Source of the DNA: a bacterium
GTDB taxonomy: Bacteria > UBA8248
Reading direction: 5' to 3'
DNA length: 64,000 nt
Assembly (NCBI GenBank): GCA_965213685.1
Contig: CBDBZY010000016.1
Location: 320,001-384,000, forward strand
Position numbers and translations under genes: made by a program. The notes beneath the pieces are model-generated. The model had not been told where the DNA came from and searched no databases. It worked only from the letters and a program-made list of their open reading frames with translations. Shown in pieces: positions 1-43,766 of this stretch; within the stretch, counting starts at the first letter, position 1, and every line of letters starts with the position of its first letter.

Positions 1-338
1 CACTAATGACCTGATTAAAGAGTGTGACTATAACACAGGACTCACAGACATTGTGGTCAAAAGCTAAGATGGGAGCTATTGCTGGTGGTGCAGGAGCAAT
101 CGGTCTGTCTCTGATGCCAGTTGCACTTGCTATTCATGTTATGAGTGATTAAAAAGTGAGTATAAAAATGGCAGTAGCCATATCAGTCGCCACTGCACCA
201 ATCAGCCTCATATGTGCTCCAGTTACTGCTACTGTGGGTGGAGTTTGGTTTGCTAGGCAAATGATCAATTTGTGCTACCACAGTGGAGACCTGTCCCCAG
301 AGAGTGATGATGAGACGTCATGTGACTCCACAGAATGA
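1..338 (+). pseudogene. 3' end of a GBP-FN3-TM copy (partial at window edge), disrupted
   Basis: Nearly identical to 14094-14430. It has an extra A (ctgattaaag versus ctgattaag, ~17-19) and TAA at 150-152 where copy B has AAA. The lesions could also be sequencing errors. Confidence 0.75.
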
Positions 339-2748: not shown

Positions 2749-4878
2749 ATGGCTGCCTCTGTAGCCATAGCTGAGGATGTTAGTGCCTCCTCCCTCACCC
2801 CTCGAGACCTCACCCTCCCTGGTAGGTCCCTCCCTCCTGCCATGCCCCTCATCATCTCCACCCAAGACAGGTGGGACCCTCACAGCTGCAAGCTGGAGAC
2901 TCACCAGCACAACAGCCAACCACAATACCTACAGCTAGTCACAGACACTCTACAACTGCTGGGAACCATCAACAAGCCTGTGGCTGTCCTGTCCATCTGT
3001 GGCCCCTACCGCTCGGGGAAGTCCTACTTCATCTCCCGACTGCTGGGCAGGCCTGGGGCCTTTCAGCTGGGCCACAGGATGCAAGCCTGTACACGTGGAA
3101 TCTGGATGGCCACCACTGTCCTGGAGTGTGAGCAGTTTGTCACGATCTTGCTGGACACGGAAGGCATTGATGCCATTAGAGCCTCCGAGACCATGGATGC
3201 GAGCTTGCTGACTGTCACCACACTCCTCAGCTCCTACCTCATCTACAACTCCATGAAGGTGCCCCAGAAGGTGGATCTGGACAAGATGAGGTGCTTCACC
3301 CAGCTCTCCAGGTCTCTGCTTGTGCAGAAAGGGGAGTCCATGAGGGCAGAGGTCATGAGGAAGTTCTTCCCTCACTTTCTGTGGCTGCTGCGAGACGTGA
3401 CACTGAAAGTGATAGACAGAGCCGGCCAGACCATCTCAGCCACTGAGTTCCTGCACACTCGTGTGCTGGCATCACAATCTGGCCAGCCTACAGAGATGGG
3501 CAAGTCTCTTTGCAGCCTCTTCCCCTCACTGGAATGCCACACTCTTCCCATGCCAAGCATCAACCCCAAAGTCATCAAGAACATTGTGGAGCAACAGGAC
3601 AAGCTGAAACCAGCATTCAACAAGGCAGTGGATGAGCTGATCCAGCGAATCCTGCAGCAAGTCATGCCCAAGAAAGCCATCGATGGAGTGAGTGTGGTGG
3701 ATGGCCCAGCTCTAGCTGCTCTGACCTGTGGCTATGTGGATGCCATCAACACGCCAGGAGCAATACCAGACCTGGAACAAGGCTGGCAGGCCGTCATCAA
3801 GTGGAAACTGAAGGAACTATCAGACAAGCTAGTGGAGGAGTACAGGAGAGAGATGGAGGAATGTTTAGGAGAAAATCTTCCCATGGAGGAGAGAAATCTG
3901 ATGAGAATCCACCAACAGACACTGAGCAGGAAAAGGGAGTCACTGCAGCAGGAGATCTGTCGACTCAAGGCATTGAGTTCCACCTCTGGAGACAAAGACC
4001 CAATCCTCAGTCAACTGGAGCAGGCAATCAGTCAGACAAACGAGGGGGGCGAGGTGATTGGGGGGGTCCTGTTCCAGTTCACCACTCACAACTACTCCAA
4101 GTCCAAGCAGCAGTGTGAAGAGGTGCTGATGGAAGCACTGAAGAGCAGTGGAATTTACAAAAAGTGTCAAGAAGCCTTCATCAACTCACAGCCACTGGAC
4201 ATAATGGCAGAGATACAGGAGATTGACAGGCAATACCACAAGCAAGCTGTTGGACCAGCAGCCAGTGAAGTGCTGGAGAAAGGTCACAGAGAACTGAACC
4301 AACTGGGAGACTCACTCAAGAGAATTCCTGGCCCACCTCATGAGGTGAGGGACATTGGACGAGGATCTGATCGAGTGAAGCTGAGGTGGCAACCTCCAAA
4401 GAAGAACCCTGAGGCTGCTGAGAGCTATGTGGTGTGGAAACAAGAGGAGGGGAAGCAGTGGGAGAGGGTGAGGGAGACAAAGAAGACCAAAATCCTCATC
4501 ACTGGACTGAAGTCAGACACAGACTACCAGTTCAGAGTCACAGCCACTAATGACCTGATTAAGAGTGTGGCTACAACACAGGACTCATGTACAATGGAGT
4601 CAAAAGCTAAGGTGGGAGCTCAAGGTGGTGGTAAAGGAGCACTTGCACTTGCATTGTCCCCAGTTTTAGGTTATGATGCTATGACTGAAGGAGACATGAG
4701 TACAAGAAAAGTAGTAGCCATATCACTCGCCACTGCACCAATCAGCCTCATATGTGCTCCAGTTACTGCTACTGTGGGTGCAGTTTGGGCTGCTAGGGAG
4801 TTCATCAAGGAAGAGTGCTACAGTGGAGACCTGTCCCCAGAGAGTGATGATGAGACGTCATGTGACTCCACAGAATGA
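2749..4878 (+). CDS. GBP/atlastin-family large GTPase with FN3 domain and C-terminal hydrophobic hairpin, copy A (intronless)
   Basis: G1 GPYRSGKS, G2 CTRGIW, G3 LLDTEG, G4 WLLRD; helical stalk; FN3 (PGPP..VKLRW..YVV..GLKSDTDYQFRVTATN); two hydrophobic segments; acidic tail. First ATG at 2749. Confidence 0.92.
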   Translation: MAASVAIAEDVSASSLTPRDLTLPGRSLPPAMPLIISTQDRWDPHSCKLETHQHNSQPQYLQLVTDTLQLLGTINKPVAVLSICGPYRSGKSYFISRLLGRPGAFQLGHRMQACTRGIWMATTVLECEQFVTILLDTEGIDAIRASETMDASLLTVTTLLSSYLIYNSMKVPQKVDLDKMRCFTQLSRSLLVQKGESMRAEVMRKFFPHFLWLLRDVTLKVIDRAGQTISATEFLHTRVLASQSGQPTEMGKSLCSLFPSLECHTLPMPSINPKVIKNIVEQQDKLKPAFNKAVDELIQRILQQVMPKKAIDGVSVVDGPALAALTCGYVDAINTPGAIPDLEQGWQAVIKWKLKELSDKLVEEYRREMEECLGENLPMEERNLMRIHQQTLSRKRESLQQEICRLKALSSTSGDKDPILSQLEQAISQTNEGGEVIGGVLFQFTTHNYSKSKQQCEEVLMEALKSSGIYKKCQEAFINSQPLDIMAEIQEIDRQYHKQAVGPAASEVLEKGHRELNQLGDSLKRIPGPPHEVRDIGRGSDRVKLRWQPPKKNPEAAESYVVWKQEEGKQWERVRETKKTKILITGLKSDTDYQFRVTATNDLIKSVATTQDSCTMESKAKVGAQGGGKGALALALSPVLGYDAMTEGDMSTRKVVAISLATAPISLICAPVTATVGAVWAAREFIKEECYSGDLSPESDDETSCDSTE

Positions 4879-5719
4879 CATGACCATACTCTATGGCTAG
4901 CTATAGCTGCTCTTGTGTGTACACGTTCATGTACTCTCATACCTGCCACAATACACACAACATGCACATGTATTTTGATATATTATGGAGTGGATGCAAC
5001 TCAATACAAGCTTTGATACTATGACATTGTGTTGGCATGGCAACAGCAGACCCTGAGTGAGCATCCATAGTGTGGGTGGAGCCAAAGAGGTCACCAGTGG
5101 GTAGCACACACAGCAGTGATCATCACTGGTTGTCATGACGAGATGGGCCATGTAAATAATTACGTAGTTGCTATAACATGTCACTGTCTGTATCGGCTCC
5201 GGGGCAATCTGATTGGTCATTAATAATAATTTTGATTCTTCTCATCACATGATTTGCTTGCATTGTCACATGACTTGGTTTCTGAGTTCTGGTTGGTGGC
5301 TAAATGGTGGCTGCTACTCAACTTCAGTGGCAAAGGTGTGAGGGGGGAGGGGTGAGGAGGGGAGGGGGAGGATGGGGAGGGTGATTGTGAGAGTCTTTTT
5401 GCTCTTGTCAAACTTTGCTCTCCCATTGAGTTGGTCTACTGGGTAAGAGAGGGCCACCTGGAATGAGTTAAGGGAGGGAGGGAAAGAGGGAGAGAGAGGA
5501 AGGGAGGAAGGGAGGAAGGGAGGAAGGGAGTGGGAAAGGGAAGGAGAAAAGGAGAGGGAGGGAGGGGGAAAAGGGAGAGGAAGAGAGGGAGGGAAGGAGA
5601 GGGAGGGAGGGAGGGAGAAGGTAAGATGTTGCTAGGATACATCCAGGAGGTATGGTGGTGTTTTGTTCTGAAGTAGCAGCTGTTTCTCAAACACATCCAA
5701 TTCCACATCTGCTGCAGAG

Positions 5720-5969
<250 letters not shown>

Positions 5970-6112
5970 ATGAAAGAAGAGAGAGAGCTCACCTCCCCCC
6001 CACACAGCCACCCTCCCCTCCACTCACTCACCTGGACCACTCACCACTCCAGGCAGCTCCACACACACTACCATCTCCTTCGGTCTCCTCCCTCTCCTGG
6101 ACCCCCCGTCAT

Positions 6113-6411
6113 CAGGCCTGTAGCCAGGGGGGGGGGGGGTTCGGGTGGTTCGATCGAACCCCCTAAATAATACTCGCCCACAGTGACTTCTCTTACACGA
6201 TGCATGCGTACGCGCTACGCGTAGAGTAAAGATGGCTAGTGGAGCTATGTCCATGGAGACTTCAACTTAGTAGCGTACTTTTAGGGTCAAATATCATTTT
6301 TCATTGTACTGTTGCATTTGGAATGTCGTCAATTGCGGGGCAGCGAGGGTGGGCGGGGCAATGGGTGGGACTTATAGAACCCCCTAAGCTGGGAGGTTGG
6401 CTATGGGCCTG
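6113..6411. mobile_element. MITE with 5-bp TSD inserted in a DNAAF2 exon
   Basis: TIR caggcctgtagcca / tggctatgggcctg; TSD GTCAT; empty site visible in copy 3 (~31293). Confidence 0.85.
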
Positions 6412-8108: not shown

Positions 8109-8221
<113 letters not shown>

Positions 8222-8422
8222 AAAAGAGAGAGCAAAACTATAAAAGAAAAGTTGGCCAAATGTCGGCCGAAGTTGGACAAGCGATTCAGTCATATTCCTG
8301 TGACCCTTATCAGTGACAAAATAATTTATGGCCAGTGTACATTGATTAGTATTAAAGTTACAGTAACACACAACTGCACATGGAGAAAGGCTTGGGAATA
8401 TTTTTAGAGAACTGTGAAAAAC

Positions 8423-8493
8423 TGGCAGCCACCTGGGATTGAACCGGGGGCCTCTGACTTCTGTCAGTGCTCTACCACCTGAGCTATGGCCAC
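8423..8493 (-). pseudogene. tRNA-like / tRNA-derived SINE head
   Basis: A box TAGCTCAGGTGG, B box GGTTCAATCCC; acceptor, D and T stems form, but the anticodon loop is only 4 nt. Confidence 0.65.
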
Positions 8494-8576
8494 CGGGTGA
8501 CAGCCAGCCTTCACAATTCTCAATATCACTCCGTACATATATGTGCACATATCATGCACACACGTCCTAACAGTAG

Positions 8577-9125
8577 GGGGTCGGCCCAGCACAGCCAGCA
8601 AGGCCGGTACTGGTGGGGGGTCGGCCCAGCACAGCCGGCGAGGCCGGTACTGGTGGGGGGTCAGCTCAGCACAGCCAATACTGGTGGGGGGTCAGCCCAG
8701 CACAGCCGGCGAGGCCGGTACTGGTGGAGGGTCGGCCCAGCACAGCCGGCGAGGCCGGTACTGGTGGGGGGTCGGCCCAGCACAGCCGGCGAGGCCGGTA
8801 CTGGTGGGGGGTCGGCCCAGCACAGCCGGCGAGGCCGGTACTGGTGGGGGGTCGGCCCAGCACAGCCGGCGAGGCCGGTACTGGTGGGGGGTCGGCCCAG
8901 CACAGCCGGCGAGGCCGGTACTGGTGGGGGGTCGGCCCAGCACAGCCGGCGAGGCCGGTACTGGTGGGGGGTCGGCCCAGCACAGCCGGCGAGGCCGGTA
9001 CTGGTGGGGGGTCGGCCCAGCACAGCCGGCGAGGCCGGTACTGGTGGAGGGTCGGCCCAGCACAGCCGGCGAGGCCGGTACTGGTGGAGGGTCGGCCCAG
9101 CACAGCTGGTGAGGCCGGTACTGGC
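8577..9125 (+). repeat. 40-bp GC-rich minisatellite, ~13-14 units
   Basis: Unit gtcggcccagcacagccggcgaggccggtactggtggggg repeated head-to-tail without spacers. Confidence 0.95.
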
Positions 9126-9272
9126 ATCCTGTGCACTGAGTGGCTCCTCAACAGCCTGGCCTGAGGGTTGCCATGGAGACCAGGGAGGTGTGGTTCTGTA
9201 ATGCCCACGTACCAGTCTTGGCTAGTATGGCATGCCACACACCATCAGGTGATACCAGCACAAGCAGCAGAG

Positions 9273-9366
<94 letters not shown>

Positions 9367-10156: not shown

Positions 10157-12093
<1,937 letters not shown>

Positions 12094-12315: not shown

Positions 12316-14430
12316 ATGGCTAAGAAGCAGGAAGTTCCCTCCCTCACCCCTCGAGACCTCACCCTCCCTGGTAGGTCCCTCCCTCCTGCCATGCCCCTCA
12401 TCATCTCCACCCAAGACAGGTGGGACCCTCACAGCTGCAAGCTGGAGACTCACCAGCACAACAGCCAACCACAACACCTACAGATAGTCACAGACACTCT
12501 ACAGCTGCTGGGAACCATCAACAAGCCTGTGGCTGTCCTGTCCATCTGTGGCCCCTACCGCTCAGGGAAGTCCTACTTCATCTCCCGACTGCTGGGCAGG
12601 CCTGGGACCTTTCAGCTGGGCCACAGGATGCAAGCCTGTACACATGGAATCTGGATGGCCACCACTGTCCTGGAGTGTGAGCAGTTTGCCATAATAATGC
12701 TAGATACAGAAGGTATCGATGCCATTAGAGCCTCTGAGACCATGGCCATGAGCCTGCTGACTGTCACCACACTCCTCAGCTCCTACCTCATCTACAACTC
12801 CAAGAAGGTGCCCCAGAAGGTGGACCTGGACAAGATGAGGTGCTTCACCCAGCTCTCCAGGTCTCTGCTCGTGCAGAAAGGGGAGTCCATGAGGGCAGAG
12901 ATCATGAGGAAGTTCTTCCCTCACTTTCTGTGGCTACTGCGAGATGTGACACTGAAAGTGACAGACAGAGTTGGCCAGACCATCTCAGCCACTGAGTTCC
13001 TGCACACTCGTGTGCTGGCATCAGAAGCTGGCCAGCCTACAGAGCTGGGCAAGTCTCTTTGCAGCCTCTTCCCCTCACTGGAATGCCACACTCTTCCCAT
13101 GCCAAGCATCAACCCCAAAGTCATCAAGAACATTGTGGAGCAACAGGACAAGCTCAAACCAGCATTCAACAAGGCAGTGGATGAACTGATCCAGCGAATC
13201 CTGCAGCAAGTCACGCCCAAGAAAGCCATCGATGGAGTGAGTGTGGTGGATGGCCCAGCTCTAGCTGCTCTGACCCGTGGCTATGTGGATGCCATCAACA
13301 CACCAGGAGCAATACCAGACCTGGAACAAGGCTGGCAGGCTGTCATCAAGTGGAAACTGAAGGAACTATCACACAAGCTAGTGGAGGAGTACAGGAGAGA
13401 GATGGAGGAATGTTTAGGAGACAATCTTCCAATGGAGGAGAGGAATCTGATGAGAATCCACCAACAGACACTGAGCAGGAAAAGAGAGTCACTGCAGCAG
13501 GAGATCCGTCGACTCAAGCCATTGAGTTCCACCTCTGGAGACAAAGACCCAGTCCTCAGTCAACTGGAGCAGGCAATCAGTCAGACAAACGAGGGGGGTG
13601 AGGTGATTGGGGGGGTCCTGTTCCAGTTCACCACTCACAACTACTCCAAGTCCAAGCAGCAGTGTGAAGAGGTGCTGGTGGAAGCAGTGAAGAGCAGTGG
13701 AATACGCAAGAAGTGTCAGGAAGCCTTCATCACCTCACAGCCACTGGACATAATGGCAGAGATACAGGAGATTGACAGGCAATACCACAGGCAAGCTGTT
13801 GGACCAGCAGCCAGTGAAGTGCTGGAGAAAGGCCACAGAGAACTGAACCAGCTGGGAGACTCACTCAAGAGAATTCCTGGCCCACCTAGTGAGGTGGAGG
13901 TCATTGGAAAGGGACCTGATCGAGTGAAGCTGAGCTGGCAACCTCCAGAGAAGAACCCTGAGGCTGCTGAGAGCTATGTGGTGTGGAAACAAGAGGAGGG
14001 GATGGAGTGGGAGAGGGTGAGGGAGACAAAGAAGACCAAAATCCTCATCACTGGACTGAAGTCAGGGACAAAGTACCAGTTCAGAGTCACAGCCACTAAT
14101 GACCTGATTAAGAGTGTGACTATAACACAGGACTCACAGACATTGTGGTCAAAAGCTAAGATGGGAGCTATTGCTGGTGGTGCAGGAGCAATTGGTCTGT
14201 CTCTGATGCCAGTTGCACTTGCTATTCATGTTATGAGTGATAAAAAAATGAGTATAAAAATGGCAGTAGCCATATCAGTCGCCACTGCACCAATCAACCT
14301 CATATGTGCTCCAGTTACTGCTACTGTGGGTGGAGTTTGGTTTGCTAGGCAAATGATCAATTTGTGCTACCACAGTGGAGACCTGTCCCCAGAGAGTGAT
14401 GATGAGACGTCATGTGACTCCACAGAATGA
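12316..14430 (+). CDS. GBP-FN3-TM GTPase, copy B
   Basis: Same motifs. Likely start MAKKQEVP at 12316; an in-frame upstream ATG also exists at 12223. Confidence 0.92.
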   Translation: MAKKQEVPSLTPRDLTLPGRSLPPAMPLIISTQDRWDPHSCKLETHQHNSQPQHLQIVTDTLQLLGTINKPVAVLSICGPYRSGKSYFISRLLGRPGTFQLGHRMQACTHGIWMATTVLECEQFAIIMLDTEGIDAIRASETMAMSLLTVTTLLSSYLIYNSKKVPQKVDLDKMRCFTQLSRSLLVQKGESMRAEIMRKFFPHFLWLLRDVTLKVTDRVGQTISATEFLHTRVLASEAGQPTELGKSLCSLFPSLECHTLPMPSINPKVIKNIVEQQDKLKPAFNKAVDELIQRILQQVTPKKAIDGVSVVDGPALAALTRGYVDAINTPGAIPDLEQGWQAVIKWKLKELSHKLVEEYRREMEECLGDNLPMEERNLMRIHQQTLSRKRESLQQEIRRLKPLSSTSGDKDPVLSQLEQAISQTNEGGEVIGGVLFQFTTHNYSKSKQQCEEVLVEAVKSSGIRKKCQEAFITSQPLDIMAEIQEIDRQYHRQAVGPAASEVLEKGHRELNQLGDSLKRIPGPPSEVEVIGKGPDRVKLSWQPPEKNPEAAESYVVWKQEEGMEWERVRETKKTKILITGLKSGTKYQFRVTATNDLIKSVTITQDSQTLWSKAKMGAIAGGAGAIGLSLMPVALAIHVMSDKKMSIKMAVAISVATAPINLICAPVTATVGGVWFARQMINLCYHSGDLSPESDDETSCDSTE

Positions 14431-16876: not shown

Positions 16877-18988
16877 ATGGCTGCCTGTGGAGACACAGTT
16901 GAGAAAGCTGCCTCCTCCCTCACCCCTCGAGACCTCACCCTCCCTGGTAGGTCCCTCCCTCCTGCCATGCCCCTCATCATCTCCACCCAAGACAGCTGGG
17001 ACCCTCACAGCTGCAAGCTGGAGACTCACCAGCACAACAGCCAACCACAACACCTACAGATAGTCACAGACACTCTACAACTGCTGGGAACCATCAACAA
17101 GCCTGTGGCTGTCCTGTCCATCTGTGGCCCCTACCGCTCGGGGAAATCCTACTTCATCTCCCGACTGCTGGGCAGGCCTGGGGCCTTTCAGCTGGGCCAC
17201 AGGATGCAAGCCTGTACACGTGGAATCTGGATGGCCACCACTGTCCTGGAGTGTGAGCAGTTTGCCACAATCCTGCTGGACACGGAAGGCATCGATGCCA
17301 TTAGAGCCTCTAAGACCATGGATGCAAGCTTGCTGACTGTCACCACACTCCTCAGCTCCTACCTCATCTACAACTCCATGAAGGTGCCCCAGAAGGTGGA
17401 CCTGGACAAGATGAGGTGCTTCACCCAGCTCTCCAGGTCTCTGCTCGTGCAGAAAGAGGAGTCCATGAGGGCAGAGGTCATGAGGAAGTTCTTCCCTCAC
17501 TTTCTGTGGCTACTGCGAGACGTGACACTGAAAGTGACAGACAGAGCCGGCCAGACCATCTCGGCCACTGAGTTCCTGCACACTCGTGTGCTGGCATCAG
17601 AAGCTGGCCAGCCTACAGAGCTGGGCAAGTCTCTTTGCAGCCTCTTCCCCTCACTGGAAGGCCACACTCTTCCCATGCCAAGTATCAACCCCAAAGTCAT
17701 CAAGAACATTGTGGAGCAACAGGACAAGCTGAAACCAGCATTCAACAAGGCAGTGGATGAGCTGATCCAGCGAATCCTGCAGCAAGTCACACCCAAGAAA
17801 GCCATCGATGGAGTGAGTGTGGTGGATGGCCCAGCTCTAGCTGCTCTGACCCGTGGCTATGTGGATGCCATCAACACACCAGGAGCAATACCACACCTGG
17901 AACAAGGCTGGCAGGCCGTCATCAAGTGGAAACTGAAGGAACTATCAGACAAGCTAGTGGAGGAGTACAGGAGAGAGATGGAGGAATGTTTAGAAGGCAA
18001 TCTTCCCATGGAGGAGAGGAATCTGATGAGAATCCACCAACAGACACTGAGCAGGAAAAGGGAGTCACTGCAGCAGGAGATCCGTCGACTCAAGCCATTG
18101 AGTTCCACCTCTGGAGACAAACACCCAGTCCTCAGTCAACTGGAGCAGGCAATCAGTCAGACAAATGAGGGGGGTGAGGTGATTGGGGGGGTCCTGTTCC
18201 AGTTCACCACTCACAACTACTCCAAGTCCAAGCAGCAGTGTGAAGAGGTGCTGATGGAAGCAGTGAAGAGCAGTGGAATTCACAAGAAGTGTCAGGAAGC
18301 CTTCATCAACTCACAGCCACTGGACATAATGGCAGAGATACAGGAGATTGACCGGCAATACCACAGGCAAGCTGTCGGACCAGCAGCCAGTGAAGTGCTG
18401 GAGAAAGGCCACAGAGAACTGAACCAACTGGGAGACTCACTCAAGAGAATTCCTGGCCCACCTCGTGAGGTGAGGGACATTGGACGAGGACCTGATCGAG
18501 TGAAGCTGAGCTGGAAACCTCCAGAGAAGAACCCTGAGGCTGCTGAGAGCTATGTGGTGTGGAAACAAGAGGAGGGAAAGCAGTGGGAGAGGGTGAGGGA
18601 GACAAAGAAGACCAAAATCCTCATCACTGGACTGAAGTCAGAGACGGACTACCAGTTCAGAGTCACAGCCACTAATGACCTGATTAAGAGTGTGGCTACA
18701 ACACAGGACTCGGAGACAATGATGTCAAAAGCTAAGAGGGGAGCTCTTGCTGGTGGTGTAGGAGCAGTTGTATTTCTATTAGCCCCACTGACAACTACTT
18801 ATATGGCTAAGACTGATGAAGAGATCAGTACAGGAAAAATAGTAGCCATATCAGTCACCACTGCACCAATCAGCCTCATATGTGCTCCAGTTACTGCTAC
18901 TGTGGGTGGAGTTTGGCTTGCTAGGGAAGTGATCAAGCAAGGGTGCTACAGTGGAGACCTGTCCCCAGAGAGTGATGATGAGACATAA
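16877..18988 (+). CDS. GBP-FN3-TM GTPase, copy C
   Basis: Same motifs, 703 aa. TCA->TAA removes the last 6 residues (SCDSTE). Confidence 0.92.
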   Translation: MAACGDTVEKAASSLTPRDLTLPGRSLPPAMPLIISTQDSWDPHSCKLETHQHNSQPQHLQIVTDTLQLLGTINKPVAVLSICGPYRSGKSYFISRLLGRPGAFQLGHRMQACTRGIWMATTVLECEQFATILLDTEGIDAIRASKTMDASLLTVTTLLSSYLIYNSMKVPQKVDLDKMRCFTQLSRSLLVQKEESMRAEVMRKFFPHFLWLLRDVTLKVTDRAGQTISATEFLHTRVLASEAGQPTELGKSLCSLFPSLEGHTLPMPSINPKVIKNIVEQQDKLKPAFNKAVDELIQRILQQVTPKKAIDGVSVVDGPALAALTRGYVDAINTPGAIPHLEQGWQAVIKWKLKELSDKLVEEYRREMEECLEGNLPMEERNLMRIHQQTLSRKRESLQQEIRRLKPLSSTSGDKHPVLSQLEQAISQTNEGGEVIGGVLFQFTTHNYSKSKQQCEEVLMEAVKSSGIHKKCQEAFINSQPLDIMAEIQEIDRQYHRQAVGPAASEVLEKGHRELNQLGDSLKRIPGPPREVRDIGRGPDRVKLSWKPPEKNPEAAESYVVWKQEEGKQWERVRETKKTKILITGLKSETDYQFRVTATNDLIKSVATTQDSETMMSKAKRGALAGGVGAVVFLLAPLTTTYMAKTDEEISTGKIVAISVTTAPISLICAPVTATVGGVWLAREVIKQGCYSGDLSPESDDET

Positions 18989-27925: not shown

Positions 27926-30055
27926 ATGGCTGCCTGTGGAGACACAGTTGAGAAAGCTGCCTCCTCCCTCACCCCTCGAGACCTCACCCTCCCTGGTAGG
28001 TCCCTCCCTCCTGCCATGCCCCTCATCATCTCCACCCAAGACAGCTGGGACCCTCACAGCTGCAAGCTGGAGACTCACCAGCACAACAGCCAACCACAAC
28101 ACCTACAGATAGTCACAGACACTCTACAACTGCTGGGAACCATCAACAAGCCTGTGGCTGTCCTGTCCATCTGTGGCCCCTACCGCTCAGGGAAGTCCTA
28201 CTTCATCTCCCGACTGCTGGGCAGGCCTGGGGCCTTTCAGCTGGGCCACAGGATGCAAGCCTGTACACGTGGAATCTGGATGGCCACCACTGTCCTGGAG
28301 TGTGAGCAGTTTGTCACAATCCTGCTGGACACGGAAGGTATCGATGCCATTAGAGCCTCCGAGACCATGGCCATGAGCTTGCTGACTGTCACCACACTCC
28401 TCAGCTCCTACCTCATCTACAATTCCATGAAGGTGCCCCAGAAGGTGGACCTGGACAAGATGAGGTGCTTCACCCAGCTCTCCAGGTCTCTGCTCGTGCA
28501 GAAAGGGGAGTCCATGACGGCAGAGGTCATGAGGAAGTTCTTCTCTCACTTTCTGTGGCTACTGCGAGACGTGACACTGAAAGTGACAGACAGAGCCGGC
28601 CAGACCATCTCAGCCACTGAGTTCCTGCACACTCGTGTGCTGGCATCACAGTCTGGCCAGCCTACAGAGCTGGGCAAGTCTCTTTGCAGCCTCTTCCCCT
28701 CACTGGAATGCCACACTCTTCCCATGCCAAGCATCAACCCCAAAGTCATCAAGAACATTGTGGAGCAACAGGACAAGCTGAAACCAGCATTCAACAAGGC
28801 AGTGGATGAGCTGATCCACCGAATTCTGCAGCAAGTCACGCCCAAGAAAGCCATCAATGGAGTGAGTGTGGTGGATGGCCCAGCTCTAGCTGCTCTGACC
28901 CGTGGCTATGTGGATGCCATCAACACACCAGGAGCAATACCAGACCTGGAACAAGGCTGGCAGGCCGTCATCAAGTGGAAACTGAAGGAACTATCAGACA
29001 AGCTAGTGGAGGAGTACAGGAGAGAGATGGAGGAATGTTTAGGAGACAATCTTCCCATGGAGGAGAGGAATCTGATGAGAATCCACCAACAGACACTGAG
29101 CAGGAAAAGGGAGTCACTGCAGCTGGAGATCCGTCGACTCAAGCCATTGAGTTCCACCTCTGGAGACAAAGACCCAGTCCTGAGTCAACTGGAGCAGGCA
29201 ATCAGTCAGACAAACAAGGGGGGTGATGTGATTGGGGGGGTCCTGTTCCAGTTCACCACTCACAACTACTCCAAGTCCAAGCAGCAGTGTGAAGAGGTGC
29301 TGATGGAAGCAGTGAAGAGCAGTGGAATTCACAAGAAGTGTCAGGAAGCCTTCATCAACTCACAGCCACTGGACATAATGGCAGAGATACAGGAGATTGA
29401 CAGGCAATACCACAGGCAAGCTGTCGGACCAGCAGCCAGTGAAGTGCTGGAGAAAGGCCACAGAGAACTGAACCAACTGGGAGACTCACTCAAGAGAATT
29501 CCTGGCCCTCCTGGTAAGGTGGTGATCATTGGACGAGGATCTGATCGAGTGAAGCTGAGCTGGCAACCTCCAGAGAAGAACCCTGAGGCTGCTGAGAGCT
29601 ATGTGGTGTGGAAACAAGAGGAGGGGAAGCAGTGGGAGAGGGTGAGGGAGACAAAGAAGACCAAAATCCTCATCACTGGACTGAAGTCAAACACAGACTA
29701 CCAGTTCAGAGTCACAGCCACTAATGACCTAATTAAGAGTGTGGCTACAACACAGAACTCATGGACATATGAGTCAAAAGCTAAGGTGGGAGCTATTGCT
29801 GGTGGTAAAGGAGCAGTTGTATTTGCATTGTCCCCAGTTATAGGTTATGAGTCTATGACTGGTAGATACATGAGTGTAAGAAAAGTAGTAGCCATATCAG
29901 TCGCCATTGCACCACTCAGCCTCATATGTGCTCCAGTTACTGCTACTGTGGGTGGAGTTTGGGCTGCTAGGGAAGAGATCAATCAAATCAGATGCTACAG
30001 TGGAGACCTGTCTCCAGAGAGTGATGATGAGACGTCATGTGACTCCACAGAATGA
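27926..30055 (+). CDS. GBP-FN3-TM GTPase, copy D
   Basis: Same motifs, uninterrupted 709 aa ORF. Confidence 0.92.
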   Translation: MAACGDTVEKAASSLTPRDLTLPGRSLPPAMPLIISTQDSWDPHSCKLETHQHNSQPQHLQIVTDTLQLLGTINKPVAVLSICGPYRSGKSYFISRLLGRPGAFQLGHRMQACTRGIWMATTVLECEQFVTILLDTEGIDAIRASETMAMSLLTVTTLLSSYLIYNSMKVPQKVDLDKMRCFTQLSRSLLVQKGESMTAEVMRKFFSHFLWLLRDVTLKVTDRAGQTISATEFLHTRVLASQSGQPTELGKSLCSLFPSLECHTLPMPSINPKVIKNIVEQQDKLKPAFNKAVDELIHRILQQVTPKKAINGVSVVDGPALAALTRGYVDAINTPGAIPDLEQGWQAVIKWKLKELSDKLVEEYRREMEECLGDNLPMEERNLMRIHQQTLSRKRESLQLEIRRLKPLSSTSGDKDPVLSQLEQAISQTNKGGDVIGGVLFQFTTHNYSKSKQQCEEVLMEAVKSSGIHKKCQEAFINSQPLDIMAEIQEIDRQYHRQAVGPAASEVLEKGHRELNQLGDSLKRIPGPPGKVVIIGRGSDRVKLSWQPPEKNPEAAESYVVWKQEEGKQWERVRETKKTKILITGLKSNTDYQFRVTATNDLIKSVATTQNSWTYESKAKVGAIAGGKGAVVFALSPVIGYESMTGRYMSVRKVVAISVAIAPLSLICAPVTATVGGVWAAREEINQIRCYSGDLSPESDDETSCDSTE

Positions 30056-35078: not shown

Positions 35079-37217
35079 ATGGCTGCTTGTAGAGACACAG
35101 CTGAGGATGTTAGTGCCTCCTCCCTCACCCCTCGAGACCTCACCCTCCCTGGTAGGTCCCTCCCTCCTGCCATGCCCCTCATCATCTCCACCCAAGACAG
35201 GTGGGACCCTCACAGCTGCAAGCTGGAGACTAACCAGCACAACAGCCAACCACAACACCTACAGCTAGTCACAGACACTCTACAACTGCTGGGAACCATC
35301 AACAAGCCTGTGGCTGTCCTGTCCATCTGTGGCCCCTATCGCTCGGGGAAGTCCTACTTCATCTCCCGACTGCTGGGCAGGCCTGGGGCCTTTCAGCTGG
35401 GCCACAGGATGCAAGCCTGTACACGTGGAATCTGGATGGCCACCACTGTCCTGGAGTGTGAGCAGTTTGCCATAATCTTGTTGGACACGGAAGGCATCGA
35501 TGCCATTGGAGCCTCTGAGACCATGGCCATGAGCTTGCTGACTGTCACCACACTCCTCAGCTCCTACCTCATCTACAACTCCAAGAAGGTGCCCCAGAAG
35601 GTGGACCTGGACAAGATGAGGTGCTTCACCCAGCTCTCCAGGTCTCTGCTCGTGCAGAAAGGGGAGTCCATGAGGGCAGAGGTCATGAGGAAGTTCTTCC
35701 CTCACTTTCTGTGGCTACTGCGAGACGTGACACTGAAAGTGACAGACAGAGCCGGCCAGACCATCTCGGCCACTGAGTTCCTGCACACTCGTGTGCTGGC
35801 ATCACAATCTGGCCAGCCTACAGAGCTGGGCAAGTCTCTTTGCAGCCTCTTCCCCTCACTGGAATGCCACACTCTTCCCATGCCAAGCATCAACCCCAAA
35901 GTCATCAAGAACATTGTGGAGCAACAGGACAAGCTGGAACCAGCATTCAACAAGGCAGTGGATGAGCTGATCCAGCGAATCCTGCAGCAAGTCACGCCCA
36001 AGAAAGCCATCGATGGAGTGAGTGTGGTGGATGGCCCAGCTCTAGCTGCTCTGACCCGTGGGTATGTGGATGCCATCAACACACCAGGAGCAATACCAGA
36101 CCTGGAACAAGGCTGGCAGGCCGTCATCAAGTGGAAACTGAAGGAACTGTCAGACAAGCTAGTGGAGGAGTACAGGAGAGAGATGGAGGAATGTTTAGCA
36201 GACAATCTTCCCATGGAGGAGAGGAATCTGATGAGAATCCACAAACAGACACTGAGCAGGAAAAGAGAGTCACTGCAGCAGGAGATCCATCGACTCAAGC
36301 CATTGAGTTCCACCTCTGGAGACAAAGACCCAGTCCTGAGTCAACTGGAGCAGGCAATCAGTCAGACAAATGAGGGGGGTGAGGTGATTGGGGGGGTCCT
36401 GTTCCAGTTCACCACTCACAACTACTCCAAGTCCAAGCAGCAGTGTGAAGAGGTGCTGATGGAAGCAGTGAAGAGCAGTGGAATCCACAAGAAGTGTCAG
36501 GAAGCCTTCATCAACTCACATCCACTGGACATAATGGCAGAGATATGGGATATTCATACACAATACTGCAAGCAAGCTGTTGGACCAGCAGCTGGTAAAG
36601 TGCTGAAAAAAGGTCACAGAGAACTGAACCAACTGGGAGACTCACTCAAGAGAATTCCTGGCCCTCCTGGTAAGGTGAAGGTCATTGGGCAGGGATCTGA
36701 TCGAGTGAAGCTGAGCTGGCAACCTCCAGAGAAGAACCCTGAGGCTGCTGAGAGCTATGTGGTGTGGAAACAAGAGGTGGGGAAGCAGTGGGAGAGGGTG
36801 AGGGAGACAAAGAAGACCAAAATCCTCATCACTGGACTGAAGTCAAAGACCAACTACCAGTTCAAAGTCACAGCCACTAATGACCTAATTAAGAGTGTGG
36901 CTACAACACAGTACTCATGGACATATGAGTCAATAGCTAAGGCGGGAGCTCTTGGTGGTGGTAAAGGAGCAGGTTTGATTGCACTGGCCCCGGTTGCAGC
37001 TGCTATTTATATTATGCATGATGGGGAGTTGAGTACAGGAAAAGTAGTGGCCATATCAGTCGCCACTTTACCACTCAGCCTCATATTTGCTCCAGTTATT
37101 GCTCCTGTGGCTGCAATTGGTGGAGCTATGTTTGCTGCGGAGGCGATCGGTGATGAGTGCAATGTATGTGATGAATTTGAAGACCTGTCCCCAGAGAGTG
37201 ATAATGAGACGTCATGA
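35079..37217 (+). CDS. GBP-FN3-TM GTPase, copy E
   Basis: Same motifs. ATG (MAACRDTAED) at 35079; divergent tail CDEFEDLSPESDNETS. Confidence 0.92.
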   Translation: MAACRDTAEDVSASSLTPRDLTLPGRSLPPAMPLIISTQDRWDPHSCKLETNQHNSQPQHLQLVTDTLQLLGTINKPVAVLSICGPYRSGKSYFISRLLGRPGAFQLGHRMQACTRGIWMATTVLECEQFAIILLDTEGIDAIGASETMAMSLLTVTTLLSSYLIYNSKKVPQKVDLDKMRCFTQLSRSLLVQKGESMRAEVMRKFFPHFLWLLRDVTLKVTDRAGQTISATEFLHTRVLASQSGQPTELGKSLCSLFPSLECHTLPMPSINPKVIKNIVEQQDKLEPAFNKAVDELIQRILQQVTPKKAIDGVSVVDGPALAALTRGYVDAINTPGAIPDLEQGWQAVIKWKLKELSDKLVEEYRREMEECLADNLPMEERNLMRIHKQTLSRKRESLQQEIHRLKPLSSTSGDKDPVLSQLEQAISQTNEGGEVIGGVLFQFTTHNYSKSKQQCEEVLMEAVKSSGIHKKCQEAFINSHPLDIMAEIWDIHTQYCKQAVGPAAGKVLKKGHRELNQLGDSLKRIPGPPGKVKVIGQGSDRVKLSWQPPEKNPEAAESYVVWKQEVGKQWERVRETKKTKILITGLKSKTNYQFKVTATNDLIKSVATTQYSWTYESIAKAGALGGGKGAGLIALAPVAAAIYIMHDGELSTGKVVAISVATLPLSLIFAPVIAPVAAIGGAMFAAEAIGDECNVCDEFEDLSPESDNETS

Positions 37218-41636: not shown

Positions 41637-43766
41637 ATGGCTGCCTGTGGAGACACAGTTGAGAAAGCTGCCTCCTCCCTCACCCCTCGAGACCTCACCC
41701 TCCCTGGTAGGTCCCTCCCTCCTGCCATGCCCCTCATCATCTCCACCCAAGACAGCTGGGACCCTCACAGCTGCAAGCTGGAGACTCACCAGCACAACAG
41801 CCAACCACAACACCTACAGATAGTCACAGACACTCTACAACTGCTGGGAACCATCAACAAGCCTGTGGCTGTCCTGTCCATCTGTGGCCCCTACCGCTCG
41901 GGGAAATCCTACTTCATCTCCCGACTGCTGGGTAGGCCTGGGGCCTTTCAGCTGGGCCACAGGATGCAAGCCTGTACACGTGGAATCTGGATGGCCACCA
42001 CTGTCCTGGAGTGTGAGCAGTTTGTCACAATCCTGCTGGACACGGAAGGCATCGATGCCATTAGAGCCTCCGAGACCATGGATGCGAGCTTGCTGACTGT
42101 CACCACACTCCTCAGCTCCTACCTCATCTACAACTCCAAGAAGGTGCCCCAGAAGGTGGATCTGGACAAGATGAGGTGCTTCACCCAGCTCTCCAGGTCT
42201 CTGCTCATGCAGAAAGAGGAGTCCATGAGGGCAGAGGTCATGAGGAAGTTCTTCCCTCACTTTCTGTGGCTACTGCGAGATGTGACACTGACTGTGACAG
42301 ACAGAGCCGGCCAGACCATCTCAGCCACTGAGTTCCTGCACACTCGTGTGCTGGCATCACAATCTGGCCAGCCTACAGAGCTGGGCAAGTCTCTTTGCAG
42401 CCTCTTCCCCTCACTGGAATGCCACACTCTTCCCATGCCAAGCATCAACCCCAAAGTCATCAAGAACATTGTGGAGCAACAGGACAAGCTGAAACCAGCA
42501 TTCAACAAGGCAGTGGATCAACTGATCCAGCGAATCCTGCAGCAAGTCACGCCCAAGAAAGCCATCGATGGAGTGAGTGTGGTGGATGGCCCAGCTCTAG
42601 CTGCTCTGACCCGTGGGTATGTGGATGCCATCAACACACCAGGAGCAATACCAGACCTGGAACAAGGCTGGCAGGCTGTCATCAAGTGGAAGCTGAAGGA
42701 ACTGTCAGACAAGCTAGTGGAGGAGTACAGGAGAGAGATGGAGAAATGTTTAGGAGACAATCTTCCCATGGAGGAGAGGAATCTGATGAGAATCCACAAA
42801 CAGACACTGAGCAGGAAAAGGGATTCACTGCAGCAGGAGATCCGTCGGCTCAAACCATTGAGTTCCACCTCTGGAGACAAAAACCCAATCCTGAGTCAAC
42901 TGGAGCAGACAATCAGTCAGACAAACGAGGGGGGTGAGGTGATTGGGGGGGTCCTGTTCCAGTTCACCACTCACAACTACTCCAAGTCCAAGCAGCAGTG
43001 TGAAGAGGTGCTGATAGAAGCAGTGAAGAGCAGTGGAATTCACAAGAAGTGTCAGGAAGCCTTCATCAACTCACATCCACTGGACATAATGGCAGAGATA
43101 TGGGATATTCATACACAATACTGCAAGCAAGCTGTTGGACCAGCAGCTGGTGAAGTGCTGAAAAAAGGTCACAGAGAACTGAACCAACTGGGAGACTCAC
43201 TCAAGAGAATTCCTGGCCCACCTCGTGAGGTGGAGGTCATTGGATGGGGACCTGATCGAGTGAAGCTGAGCTGGCAACCTCCAAAGAAGAACCCTGAGGC
43301 TGCTGAGAGCTATGTGGTGTGGAAACAAGAGGAGGGGAAGCAGTGGGAGAGGGTGAGGGAGACAAAGAAGACCAAAATCCTCATCACTGGACTGAAGTCA
43401 GACACAGACTACCAGTTCAGAATCACAGCCACTAATGACCTGATTAAGAGTGTGGCTGCAACACATGACTCATGGACAATGGAGTCAAAAGCTAAGATGG
43501 GAGCTCTTGCTGGTGGTGTAGGAGCAATTACATTGTCACTGATGCCAGTTGCAGCAGCTATTGCGAATGTGACTGCTGAAGACATGAGTGGAGGAAAAAT
43601 AGTAGCCATATCAGTCGCCACTTTACCAATTAGCCTCATATGTGCTCCAGTTACTGCTACTGTGGGTGGAGTTTGGATTGCTAGGGAAGTGATCAAGGAC
43701 GGATGCTACAGTGGAGACCTGTCCCCAGAGAGTGATGATGAGACGTCATGTGATTCCACAGAATGA
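41637..43766 (+). CDS. GBP-FN3-TM GTPase, copy F
   Basis: Same motifs, uninterrupted 709 aa ORF. Confidence 0.92.
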   Translation: MAACGDTVEKAASSLTPRDLTLPGRSLPPAMPLIISTQDSWDPHSCKLETHQHNSQPQHLQIVTDTLQLLGTINKPVAVLSICGPYRSGKSYFISRLLGRPGAFQLGHRMQACTRGIWMATTVLECEQFVTILLDTEGIDAIRASETMDASLLTVTTLLSSYLIYNSKKVPQKVDLDKMRCFTQLSRSLLMQKEESMRAEVMRKFFPHFLWLLRDVTLTVTDRAGQTISATEFLHTRVLASQSGQPTELGKSLCSLFPSLECHTLPMPSINPKVIKNIVEQQDKLKPAFNKAVDQLIQRILQQVTPKKAIDGVSVVDGPALAALTRGYVDAINTPGAIPDLEQGWQAVIKWKLKELSDKLVEEYRREMEKCLGDNLPMEERNLMRIHKQTLSRKRDSLQQEIRRLKPLSSTSGDKNPILSQLEQTISQTNEGGEVIGGVLFQFTTHNYSKSKQQCEEVLIEAVKSSGIHKKCQEAFINSHPLDIMAEIWDIHTQYCKQAVGPAAGEVLKKGHRELNQLGDSLKRIPGPPREVEVIGWGPDRVKLSWQPPKKNPEAAESYVVWKQEEGKQWERVRETKKTKILITGLKSDTDYQFRITATNDLIKSVAATHDSWTMESKAKMGALAGGVGAITLSLMPVAAAIANVTAEDMSGGKIVAISVATLPISLICAPVTATVGGVWIAREVIKDGCYSGDLSPESDDETSCDSTE

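What the first reader, a model, noticed from the sequence alone, without database searches (positions are those of the whole stretch)
4324..4830. Hypervariable FN3 surface and membrane hairpin flanked by near-invariant sequence
Seen: the first ~525 aa differ at few sites. Variation clusters in FN3 strand A (HEVRDIGRGS / SEVEVIGKGP / GKVVIIGRGS / REVEVIGWGP), the KS-x-T-x-Y loop, strand G (TQDSCT / TQNSWT / THDSWT / TQDSHT), and above all helix 1 and the inter-helix loop (LGYDAMTEGD, ALAIHVMSDKK, TTTYMAKTDEE, IGYESMTGRY, AAAIYIMHDGE, AAAIANVTAED, ASTIWAVTGES). The GDLSPESDDE tail and even the non-coding ~90 nt after the stop are much more conserved than this coding segment, and all length changes keep the frame. 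Inference: diversifying selection on a specificity module, either ligand/lipid recognition or escape from pathogen antagonists.
Basis: partly seen in the sequence, partly recalled or inferred. Interest (0 to 1): 0.85.

Follow-up and report, generated by a model that had tools for sequence, protein, structure and literature searches.

The report
Hypervariable membrane anchor on GBP-like GTPases
A tandem array of near-identical immune-type GTPase genes differs almost only in the short segment that ties each protein to a membrane, and that segment has been driven apart by positive selection while the rest of the gene is kept uniform by gene conversion.

Summary
The window holds 8 intact intronless genes. 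The same contig holds 23. Each encodes a GBP-type GTPase, a GBP helical domain, one FN3 domain, two hydrophobic helices and an acidic tail.

- **Body, codons 1-510:** dN/dS 0.34.
- **About 90 codons from the end of FN3 to the juxtamembrane helix:** dN/dS 1.8-1.9 by counting and 2.8-3.3 by maximum likelihood. dN exceeds dS in 27 of 28 window pairs and 243 of 253 contig pairs. Site-model LRTs are 100-120.
- **Controls:** null simulations with the observed composition and body segments do not reproduce this.
- **Flanks:** the tail and about 105 nt of 3'UTR are as uniform as the body.

Gene conversion also contributes. The PHI test gives p<0.001. Hairpin dS is 2-3 times higher than in the body, and head classes and hairpin types are decoupled.

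Variable sites lie on one face of helix 1, the turn, the juxtamembrane helix and three FN3 patches. Helix 2 is conserved.

Two things remain open. Function is inferred, not shown. Codon composition flips inside the gene, with 4-fold GC of 0.17 in the hairpin against 0.61 in the body, and I cannot explain this. The host is probably a sponge.

The parts
2749..4878 (+). copy c1, intronless CDS of a GBP-type GTPase + GBP_C + FN3 + two hydrophobic helices + acidic tail (709 aa)
4333..4599 (+). c1 FN3 domain; variable patches in strand A, the EF loop/start of F, and the end of G
   Evidence: Pfam fn3; AF2 strands, pLDDT >90; site posteriors; coordinates
4603..4713 (+). c1 helix 1 plus turn: the hypervariable core (Gly/Ala face conserved, opposite face and turn variable)
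4714..4788 (+). c1 helix 2, conserved proline-containing hydrophobic helix (VAIS-ATAPISLICAPVTATVG-VW)
4789..4827 (+). c1 juxtamembrane helix; variable at aligned columns 682, 686, 689, 691, 698
4828..4878 (+). c1 conserved acidic tail DLSPESDDETSCDSTE plus stop
4879..4985 (+). about 105 nt of 3'UTR, near-identical in all 8 copies
12316..14430 (+). copy c2 CDS (variable module 13882-14379)
16877..18988 (+). copy c3 CDS (variable module 18458-18955; tail cut 6 codons short by a TAA)
27926..30055 (+). copy c4 CDS (variable module 29507-30004); reference copy for the structure model and searches
35079..37217 (+). copy c5 CDS (variable module 36663-37181; 2-base deletion in the tail)
41637..43766 (+). 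copy c6 CDS (variable module 43218-43715)
48570..50702 (+). copy c7 CDS (variable module 50154-50651)
53383..55533 (+). copy c8 CDS, most divergent hairpin with two in-frame insertions (variable module 54964-55482)
9..335 (+). truncated pseudogene remnant: end of FN3 + hairpin + tail of the c2-like type, with 2 in-frame stops

Best explanation
The window is part of a ~200 kb tandem array of intronless genes. Each encodes a membrane-anchored member of the GBP branch of the dynamin superfamily. The parts are a catalytically complete GBP-type G domain, a helical domain, one cytosolic FN3 domain, two hydrophobic helices and a conserved acidic tail. The two helices are most likely a hairpin with both ends in the cytosol.

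Two forces shape the array.
1. Non-allelic gene conversion keeps the G domain, helical domain, tail and ~105 nt of 3'UTR within a few percent of each other. This holds even between copies with unrelated upstream DNA.
2. Positive (diversifying) selection has driven apart, and now maintains, at least 15 anchor types.

The variable residues occupy one face of helix 1, the short turn, one face of the juxtamembrane helix after helix 2, and three FN3 patches (strand A, EF loop, end of strand G). Helix 2, its invariant prolines, the Gly/Ala face of helix 1 and the tail stay constant.

Shown here: the architecture, the conversion, omega above 1, and the positions of the variable sites.

Inferred: each paralog presents a different membrane-embedded and membrane-proximal surface on the same GTPase chassis. 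That surface would set which membrane or membrane protein is engaged, or would escape an antagonist that binds the anchor. By analogy with GBPs this would be a cell-autonomous defence or symbiont-handling role, probably in a sponge.
For: **Architecture.** Pfam gives GBP 132.5 bits, GBP_C 39.9 and fn3 41.4, all above cut-off. PDB sequence matches to GBP2/1/5 have E 1e-27 to 5e-32, against 1e-9 for atlastin. Foldseek top hits are GBP5/GBP1/GBP2, and FN3con has TM 0.80. AF2 gives helices 618-645 and 651-687. Helix 2 has a KD 19-mer mean of 1.6 or more in 57 of 57.

**Selection, 8 window copies.** Body omega is 0.34 and the hairpin 1.87. dN exceeds dS in 27 of 28 pairs, bootstrap P is 0.002, and ungapped columns give 1.74.

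**Selection, 23 contig copies.** dN exceeds dS in 243 of 253 pairs in the hairpin and in 0 of 253 in the body. Omega is 4.7 for the 13 pairs with hairpin pS below 0.05.

**Maximum likelihood on the hairpin alone, with its own tree.**
- M0 omega 3.27, LRT against omega=1 of 39.9.
- M2a/M1a LRT 120.0, M8/M7 120.3, M8/M8a 120.1.
- MG94-F3x4: omega 2.80, LRT 29.5, M2a/M1a LRT 100.2.

**Controls.**
- 100 simulations at omega=1 with the observed composition give an NG86 ratio of 0.99 +/- 0.15, maximum 1.46. The observed value is 1.78.
- 4 M1a-null replicates give LRTs of 0-3.3.
- Body segments 101-190 and 441-510 give LRTs of 0 and 5.2.

**Conversion.**
- PHI p<0.001 for the CDS and for the body, with discordant segment trees.
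- Eight same-type pairs have hairpin pS 0 while their bodies differ at pS 0.011-0.055; a ninth (g264873/g316926) has hairpin pS 0.036 against body 0.048.
- Head classes and hairpin types are decoupled, with 15 types among 23 copies.
- 4-fold GC is 0.605 in the body and 0.17 in the hairpin.

**Position of variable sites.** Searches give the sites. Helix-1 variability has 95-100 degree periodicity, permutation P 0.025-0.03.

**Family-wide.** Helix 1 plus turn is less conserved than the G-domain-plus-helical body in 8 of 10 paralog/ortholog groups at protein level, and it or the juxtamembrane stretch is the least conserved region in 7 of them.
Against: - Function, localisation, topology and expression are all untested. 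No RNA holder was available.
- Helix 1 is below the TM hydrophobicity threshold in 2 of 8 window copies and 27 of 57 family members. A single-pass or interfacial arrangement is therefore possible.
- Recombination inflates site-model LRTs. The body as a whole gave an LRT of 23, and PHI within the hairpin is borderline at p=0.07.
- Hairpin dS is 2-3 times the body's, so part of the contrast is age rather than selection.
- The extreme AT3 composition of the hairpin is unexplained. A non-stationary, region-specific mutation process was not modelled.
- The codon ML, PHI and simulation code is my own, not PAML or HyPhy.
- In two distant subfamilies (P0095/P0101, P0108/P0118) the hairpin is no more variable than the body.
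- The three FN3 patches could not be shown to be one surface, because no coordinates were available.
Confidence: 0.7

Rival explanations
1. Neutral island. The hairpin is only weakly constrained (any small or hydrophobic residues will do) and is too divergent to be converted. It therefore drifts while the rest of the gene is homogenised. No positive selection is involved.
For: Hairpin pS is 2.4 times the body's: 0.149 against 0.063. Conversion is pervasive outside the hairpin. Helix 1 is compositionally simple, being rich in Gly, Ala, Val and Leu. The body as a whole also gives a spurious-looking LRT of 23.
Against: - Relaxation predicts omega near 1. Observed values are 1.78 (CI 1.22-2.63), 3.27 and 2.80, all rejecting omega=1.
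- Omega rises to 2.4-4.7 in the least diverged pairs.
- Simulations at omega=1 never reach the observed ratio in 100 runs.
- Conserved and hypervariable positions alternate with helical periodicity. The segment is therefore constrained, not free.
Confidence: 0.08
2. Host-internal specialisation. Selection is real but is not driven by microbes. The anchor types sort paralogs to different host organelles or lipid environments. Alternatively they enforce homotypic assembly, so that each paralog oligomerises only with itself. GBPs and atlastins act as oligomers.
For: Variable residues lie on a helix face and juxtamembrane surfaces that could be helix-helix or lipid contacts. Atlastin and RNF112, both structural relatives, are housekeeping membrane GTPases. 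No expression or infection data exist here.
Against: Fifteen or more types among 23 copies with omega2 of about 8-9 is more turnover than a handful of organelles would need. Large, recently duplicating arrays with recurrent change in one module are typical of conflict genes; this is general knowledge and was not tested here. Nothing here tests oligomerisation.
Confidence: 0.2
3. Artefact. Misalignment of a gappy low-complexity segment, or skewed codon composition, produces the apparent omega above 1.
For: There are gaps in 19 of 90 hairpin columns. 49% of differing codons have 2 or more changes. 4-fold GC is 0.17, which violates the equal-rate assumption of NG86.
Against: - Ungapped columns give 1.74, P=0.001.
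- Gap-free, low-divergence pairs give the highest omega.
- GY94-F3x4 and MG94-F3x4 both model the composition and give 3.27 and 2.80.
- Composition-matched null simulations give 0.99 +/- 0.15 and LRTs of 0-3.3.
Confidence: 0.04

Closest known systems
Vertebrate interferon-inducible GBPs (hGBP1/2/5)
   Same: They have the same G-domain family and fold. The motifs GPYRSGKS, DTEG and LLRD are present and conserved. Both occur in tandem arrays. Both have a C-terminal membrane-targeting element that evolves fast: primate GBP polybasic motif, PMC7240152, seen as search listing and abstract start only.
   Different: There is no CaaX box or polybasic motif. Here the anchor is protein-encoded, as FN3 plus two hydrophobic helices plus an acidic tail. 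GBP_C is matched only over its first 78-179 of 297 profile positions. The genes are intronless, there are 23 or more copies, and the host is probably a sponge.
Atlastin and RNF112 (GBP-like GTPases with C-terminal membrane helices)
   Same: They combine a GBP-type G domain and a helical middle domain, followed by two closely spaced hydrophobic helices and a short cytosolic tail. Both appear among the Foldseek hits. That atlastin and RNF112 carry TM pairs is recalled, not tested here.
   Different: Sequence similarity to atlastin is far weaker than to GBPs: E 1e-9 against 5e-32. Neither atlastin nor RNF112 has an FN3 domain. They are single or low-copy conserved genes, not hypervariable arrays.
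Rapidly evolving immune gene arrays with a variable specificity module (mouse IRGs, fish finTRIM B30.2; TM-domain selection in tetherin)
   Same: All share the pattern of a constant effector body with a positively selected contact surface, in tandem paralogs reshuffled by recombination. Tetherin is a recalled precedent for positive selection inside a TM helix caused by a TM-binding viral antagonist.
   Different: All of these are recalled; only the finTRIM reference was seen, in a reference list. Here the variable module is the membrane anchor of a GTPase itself. No antagonist or ligand is known.

Membership tests
GBP family (GB1/RHD3-type G domain, dynamin superfamily) | Pfam GBP N-terminal domain above the gathering score | tested here: met
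   132.5 and 137.1 bits against a cut-off of 21.1
GBP family (GB1/RHD3-type G domain, dynamin superfamily) | G motifs: P-loop with internal Arg (GxxRxGKS), switch-I Thr, DTEG, (T/L)(L/V)RD | tested here: met
   GPYRSGKS, ACTRGIW, LLDTEGI and WLLRDV are present in all 8 copies. G84, G89, K90, S91, T114, D135, T136, G138 and D215 are invariant in 57 family members. The role of each motif is recalled from hGBP1.
GBP family (GB1/RHD3-type G domain, dynamin superfamily) | Helical GBP_C domain after the G domain | tested here: met
   39.9 and 38.2 bits against a cut-off of 24.3, but only profile positions 2-78 or 2-179 of 297. AF2 shows long helices at 344-522.
GBP family (GB1/RHD3-type G domain, dynamin superfamily) | Closest solved structures are GBPs | tested here: met
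   phmmer to GBP2/1/5 gives E 5e-32 to 6e-27. Foldseek ranks 1-21 are GBP5/1/2.
GBP family (GB1/RHD3-type G domain, dynamin superfamily) | C-terminal CaaX isoprenylation signal (hGBP1/2/5 subset only) | tested here: not met
   C-termini are ...SCDSTE...DDET and ...NETS
GBP family (GB1/RHD3-type G domain, dynamin superfamily) | Induction by infection or interferon-like signals | not testable with these tools
Atlastin | Atlastin-type G domain as the best match | tested here: not met
   Atlastin-1 E is 1.8e-9 against 4.9e-32 for GBP2
Atlastin | Two closely spaced TM helices followed by a short cytosolic tail | tested here: inconclusive
   AF2 gives two helices separated by a 5-residue turn. Helix 2 is hydrophobic in 57 of 57 and helix 1 in 30 of 57. 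No dedicated TM predictor or experiment was available.
Fibronectin type III domain | Pfam fn3 above the gathering score and an FN3 fold | tested here: met
   41.4 bits against a cut-off of 25. There are seven strands with pLDDT above 90. FN3con has TM 0.80 and rmsd 1.3.
Diversifying-selection immune gene array (a kind, not a family) | Tandem paralogs with omega above 1 confined to one module | tested here: met

The most novel reading that the evidence does not exclude
The two-helix anchor is a germline-encoded recognition repertoire that works inside and at the surface of the bilayer. At least 15 alternative helix faces, turns and juxtamembrane surfaces, mounted on one GBP-type GTPase chassis, would let an early-branching animal (probably a sponge) tell apart or attack different microbe-containing membranes. 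Gene conversion would keep the enzyme constant. The AT3-rich codon island would mark a segment shielded from conversion or translated slowly for insertion. This would be immune specificity encoded in a membrane anchor rather than in a soluble binding domain.
Probability: 0.15. Interest if true: 0.9.

Novelty: new variant of a known kind. Interest (0 to 1): 0.68.

Why it matters
GBPs are central cell-autonomous defence GTPases in vertebrates. A 2022 review states that their presence and function in invertebrates are still unclear, and it mentions neither FN3 nor sponges (passages of PMC9005921). Here a GBP-type enzyme is joined to a protein-encoded membrane anchor and amplified to 23 or more copies. 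It shows a clean split between a conversion-homogenised enzyme and a positively selected anchor.

If the anchor sets target specificity, three things follow:
- It is a new way of building an innate recognition repertoire.
- It is a natural tail-swap experiment, with many anchors on one body.
- It is a rare case of adaptive evolution on a helix face within the membrane.

The array is also a compact example of how gene conversion and selection partition one gene.

Tried and rejected
**Expression.** The look-up of sequencing runs listed no RNA holder. Nothing can therefore be said on transcription.

**Names and taxa.** Cluster look-up of 6 relatives gave no names. ESM Atlas hits all scored below 0.9: Septin/AIG1+fn3 clusters at 0.83-0.79 and a GBP cluster at 0.76. 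I treat these as leads only.

**Literature.** Each search returned nothing on a GBP with FN3 or with TM helices:
- GBP + FN3 + teleost + transmembrane: 0 papers.
- guanylate-binding + FN3 + zebrafish: 1 paper, irrelevant; its 'FN3' was part of an accession number.
- GBPs + teleost + positive selection: the same paper.
- The five-term search: 15 unrelated papers.
- sponge + GBP + Porifera: 1 unrelated paper.
- GBP + invertebrates + expansion + transmembrane: 10 of 248 listed, none describing such a protein; one was the review read.

Supplements were not consulted. Subscription journals are outside the library, so 'not described' holds only for these searches.

**DNA from other species.** The metagenome-contig scan gave 23 loci. 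All but one were distant GBP-like genes at 22-38% identity. The exception was a 1.7 kb fragment at 50% identity covering residues 14-180. None had the C-terminal module. The genome-contig scan gave none. The codon-level result could therefore not be replicated in another species. Only a protein-level comparison was possible, and its groups were chosen by similarity and contig length, not by verified species.

**Hairpin-only searches.** The word-based search of residues 610-709 found 6 close relatives. phmmer of residues 615-709 against 1.84 billion representatives found 17 hits, which were short fragments or long multi-stretch proteins I take to be low-complexity. There is no evidence that the module occurs on other heads.

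**Other ideas tested and dropped.**
- Overlapping-gene explanation: all 5 other frames of the hairpin carry 1-11 stops in every copy.
- Deaminase-like hypermutation: kappa in the hairpin is 1.1-1.4, which is not transition-dominated.
- gBGC faking omega above 1: the hairpin is the GC3-poor part.
- LIR or other known motif in the tail: the aromatic residue before GDL is not conserved across the family, so I dropped it.

**Not attempted.**
- Mapping sites on the AF2 model in 3D, because coordinates are not exposed.
- Complex prediction, because I make no binding claim.
- The second structure job.
Full report
**What is there.** The window is animal DNA rich in microsatellites. It carries eight intact, intronless, same-strand ORFs of about 703-716 aa counted from their ATGs.

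Pfam finds a GBP N-terminal G domain at 132.5 bits. The start of the GBP_C helical domain scores 39.9 bits, and one fn3 domain scores 41.4 bits. All are above the curated cut-offs. About 100 residues follow. They comprise a Gly/Ala-rich hydrophobic helix, a short turn, a second proline-containing hydrophobic helix, a short amphipathic stretch and the acidic tail GDLSPESDDETSCDSTE.

The G domain is much closer to human GBP2/1/5 (E 5e-32 to 6e-27) than to atlastin-1 (about 1e-9). An AlphaFold2 model built on 57 family members has mean pLDDT 74.8. It gives a confident FN3 (pLDDT above 90) and two antiparallel helices at residues 618-645 and 651-687 (pLDDT 62-84). Foldseek ranks GBP5, GBP1 and GBP2 first. 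FN3con matches the FN3 at TM 0.80. RNF112 and atlastin appear further down.

The G motifs GPYRSGKS, DTEG and LLRD are present in all copies and invariant across the family. There is no CaaX box.

**Size of the array and host.** The window is C16:320001-384000 of an 8 Mb, 71-contig assembly. A protein search of that assembly finds 52 matches, nearly all on C16 between 178 and 375 kb. Of these, 23 are intact ORFs of 650 aa or more.

The assembly is a mixture. Many contigs have GC of about 0.65 and others 0.42-0.53. It therefore looks like a bacterial bin that also holds host contigs.

Ten public runs labelled 'sponge metagenome', from five studies, hold 0.34-0.48 of the sampled words of copy c4. 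The host is therefore probably a sponge. I did not confirm this independently.

A database search found 228 relatives. Many are 44-66% identical, have the same GBP + GBP_C + fn3 architecture and lie on Mb-scale contigs. None carries a name.

**Check of the observation.**
- Nucleotide diversity is 0.01-0.09 along the body.
- It rises to 0.14 at the end of FN3 and to 0.13-0.42 across the two helices.
- It drops to 0.044-0.049 in the tail and the first ~120 nt after the stop.
- About 105 nt of 3'UTR are almost identical in all eight copies.

Upstream of the start codon the copies fall into at least four unrelated classes. The uniformity of the CDS is therefore not just recent duplication of whole units.

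**Is it selection?**

*Counting (Nei-Gojobori).* On the eight copies the body gives dS 0.071, dN 0.024 and omega 0.34. FN3 gives 0.67. Columns 601-690 give dS 0.202, dN 0.377 and omega 1.87. The tail gives 0.86.

In the hairpin, dN exceeds dS in 27 of 28 pairs. Fisher's test gives p<0.05 in 17 of 28. A column bootstrap gives P=0.002 with a ratio CI of 1.22-2.63. The 71 ungapped columns give 1.74. In the body the count is 0 of 28.

With all 23 contig copies, hairpin pN exceeds pS in 243 of 253 pairs, against 0 of 253 in the body. Omega is highest where divergence is lowest. It is 4.7 for the 13 pairs with hairpin pS below 0.05 and 2.4 for the 55 pairs at 0.05-0.1. This argues against saturation or misalignment as the cause.

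*Maximum likelihood.* I wrote a codon ML program for this. On the hairpin alone, with its own tree:
- GY94-F3x4 M0 gives omega 3.27, and the LRT against omega=1 is 39.9.
- M2a against M1a gives an LRT of 120.0. M8 against M7 gives 120.3 and M8 against M8a gives 120.1.
- About 40% of sites sit at omega of about 9.
- The MG94-F3x4 parameterisation gives omega 2.80, an LRT of 29.5 and an M2a/M1a LRT of 100.2.

*Controls.*
- One hundred simulations at omega=1, on the fitted tree with the observed position-specific composition, give an NG86 ratio of 0.99 +/- 0.15 with a maximum of 1.46. The observed value is 1.78.
- Four replicates simulated under the fitted M1a give LRTs of 0, 0, 3.3 and 0.
- Body segments of similar length give LRTs of 0 and 5.2.
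- FN3 alone gives 40.6 (omega2 about 10 for 13% of sites).
- The whole body of 510 codons, where recombination is rife, gives 23. That value is a warning about how much recombination alone can inflate the test.

**Gene conversion also operates.** A PHI test (my own implementation) rejects no-recombination for the whole CDS and for the body at p<0.001. For the hairpin alone it gives p=0.07. Segment trees disagree with each other.

Hairpin pS averages 0.149 against 0.063 in the body. The anchor lineages are therefore older than the bodies they sit on.

Eight pairs of copies share an anchor type with hairpin pS of 0 while their bodies differ at pS 0.011-0.055. A ninth near-identical pair (g264873/g316926) has hairpin pS 0.036 against body pS 0.048. 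This is what one expects if bodies keep receiving tracts from other paralogs and anchors do not.

N-terminal head classes and anchor types are decoupled. There are 15 anchor types at 85% aa identity among the 23 copies.

**Where the variable sites are.** The following aligned columns have posterior above 0.9 under M2a:

| Region | Aligned columns | c4 residues |
|---|---|---|
| FN3 strand A and just before it | 517, 520, 521, 524 | 530, 533, 534, 537 |
| FN3 EF loop / start of F | 576, 578 | 589, 591 |
| End of strand G and linker | 600, 602, 603 | 613, 615, 616 |
| Helix 1 | 609, 612, 616, 619-622, 624 | |
| Outer end of helix 1 and turn | nearly all of 634-649 | |
| Helix 2 | 661 only | |
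| Juxtamembrane helix | 682, 686, 689, 691, 698 | |

With eight sequences these posteriors are indicative only.

Across the 23 copies, helix-1 variability has a periodicity of 95-100 degrees (permutation P 0.025-0.03). A constant A/G face (A619, G622/A623, G626/G627, G629/A630) alternates with a variable face.

Helix 2 is the most conserved part of the anchor. P670 is invariant, and P663, D694 and L695 are 90% or more conserved across 57 family members.

From the canonical FN3 topology, which I recall rather than tested, the AB turn, the EF loop and the end of G lie at the C-terminal pole of the domain, next to the anchor. I could not verify this in 3D because model coordinates are not exposed.

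**Membrane status.** Helix 2 has a Kyte-Doolittle 19-mer mean of 1.61-2.79 in 57 of 57 family members. Helix 1 ranges from 0.34 to 2.42. It reaches 1.6 in 30 of 57 family members and in 6 of 8 window copies. Nothing else in these proteins exceeds 1.41.

A hairpin with both ends cytosolic fits the basic residues that flank both helices. A single-pass helix 2 with an interfacial helix 1 is not excluded.

**Family-wide pattern.** At protein level, helix 1 plus the turn is less conserved than the G-domain-plus-helical body in 8 of 10 paralog/ortholog groups of the wider family. It, or the juxtamembrane stretch, is the least conserved region in 7 of them. One example is 0.29 and 0.16 identity against 0.88 for the body, in six proteins from two contigs. 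Two distant subfamilies are exceptions. I defined the groups by similarity and contig length.

**An unexplained feature.** Synonymous composition flips inside the gene. GC at 4-fold sites is 0.605 in the body, 0.415 in FN3 and 0.17 in columns 601-680. In that segment Gly is 96% GGA/GGT, against 43% in the body. GC recovers in the tail.

For comparison, the window's intergenic GC is 0.48. The median 4-fold GC of 280 long ORFs on the host-like contigs is 0.44, with a range of 0.21-0.73.

GC-biased conversion could explain the GC-rich body. It cannot explain why the hairpin is far below background. Possibilities include slow-codon usage for membrane insertion, a separate origin of the module, or a local mutation bias. 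Kappa of 1.1-1.4 speaks against deaminase-type mutation. None of these was tested.

**Interpretation.** I consider the following shown:
- a GBP-type GTPase family with an FN3 plus two-helix anchor;
- its amplification into a large array;
- homogenisation of everything except the anchor module;
- omega above 1 in that module.

I infer that the anchor is a specificity determinant, with about 0.7 confidence for the whole package and less for any particular driver. Microbe-driven conflict is my preferred driver. This rests on analogy with vertebrate GBPs, whose C-terminal targeting motif also evolves fast (PMC7240152, listing and abstract start only). It also rests on the scale of turnover.

Host-internal sorting or homotypic-assembly specificity is a serious rival, at 0.2. 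Pure neutral escape from conversion (0.08) and artefact (0.04) are disfavoured by the tests above.

A 2022 review says that the presence and function of invertebrate GBPs remain unclear, and it mentions neither FN3 nor sponges (passages read). My six searches found no description of this architecture.

**Verdict.** This is a new variant of a known kind: a GBP-family array whose positively selected module is a protein-encoded membrane anchor.

Noticed in passing
whole assembly G000 (window = C16:320001-384000): The assembly that holds the window mixes contigs of GC about 0.62-0.69 with contigs of GC 0.42-0.54 that carry animal genes. It looks like a bacterial bin that also contains host DNA. 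The reported completeness of 94% and contamination of 3.7% hide this.
   Followed up: partly
window 4591-4827 and the same segment of all copies: Synonymous composition flips. 4-fold GC is 0.17 in the hairpin, against 0.605 in the body, 0.48 in intergenic DNA and a median of 0.44 in 280 long ORFs of the host-like contigs. This is unexplained.
   Followed up: partly
C16:193952-194332, 213035-213415, 283509-283889 (outside the window): Three nearly identical 127-codon open frames encode only the end of FN3 plus a hairpin plus a tail. Their anchor type is found in none of the 23 intact genes. They may be pseudogene relics, stand-alone small ORFs or conversion donors. I did not resolve which.
   Followed up: partly
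window 9-335: This is a truncated remnant of a c2-type FN3 end, hairpin and tail with two in-frame stops. Further decayed pieces lie just upstream of the window.
   Followed up: yes
window 18956-18988 and 37182-37217: c3 loses the last six codons of the tail through a TCA-to-TAA change. c5 has a 2-base deletion that ends its tail early. c5 also carries extra residues in helix 2 and the juxtamembrane part.
   Followed up: yes
window 30492-31655 (-) and 11399-11668 (+): The spacers contain exon-like pieces of other genes. One is a PIH1 CS-like domain (E 4e-14) on the minus strand. The other is an ICAP-1/PTB-like piece (E 5e-9) on the plus strand. This suggests that fragments of neighbouring genes were copied along with the array units.
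   Followed up: partly
window, 240 nt upstream of each CDS: There are at least four unrelated upstream and N-terminal head classes: MAACGDTVEKAAS (c3, c4, c6, c8), MAAS...AEDVSAS (c1, c7, with c5 related), and MAKKQEVP (c2). Head class does not track anchor type across the contig.
   Followed up: partly
G000 C64:1589043-1590856: A dispersed copy on another contig matches residues 44-666 at 54-91% identity (80-91% for all pieces but the last). It is in five abutting pieces in different frames, so it is probably a frameshifted pseudogene.
   Followed up: no
window 5436-6170, 8051-8407, 9140-9712, 11054-11418, 56773-57273 and others: Long (CA)n, (GA)n and proline/serine-coding simple repeats fill much of the spacers. 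A ~40-codon tandem repeat lies at 8467-9238.
   Followed up: no
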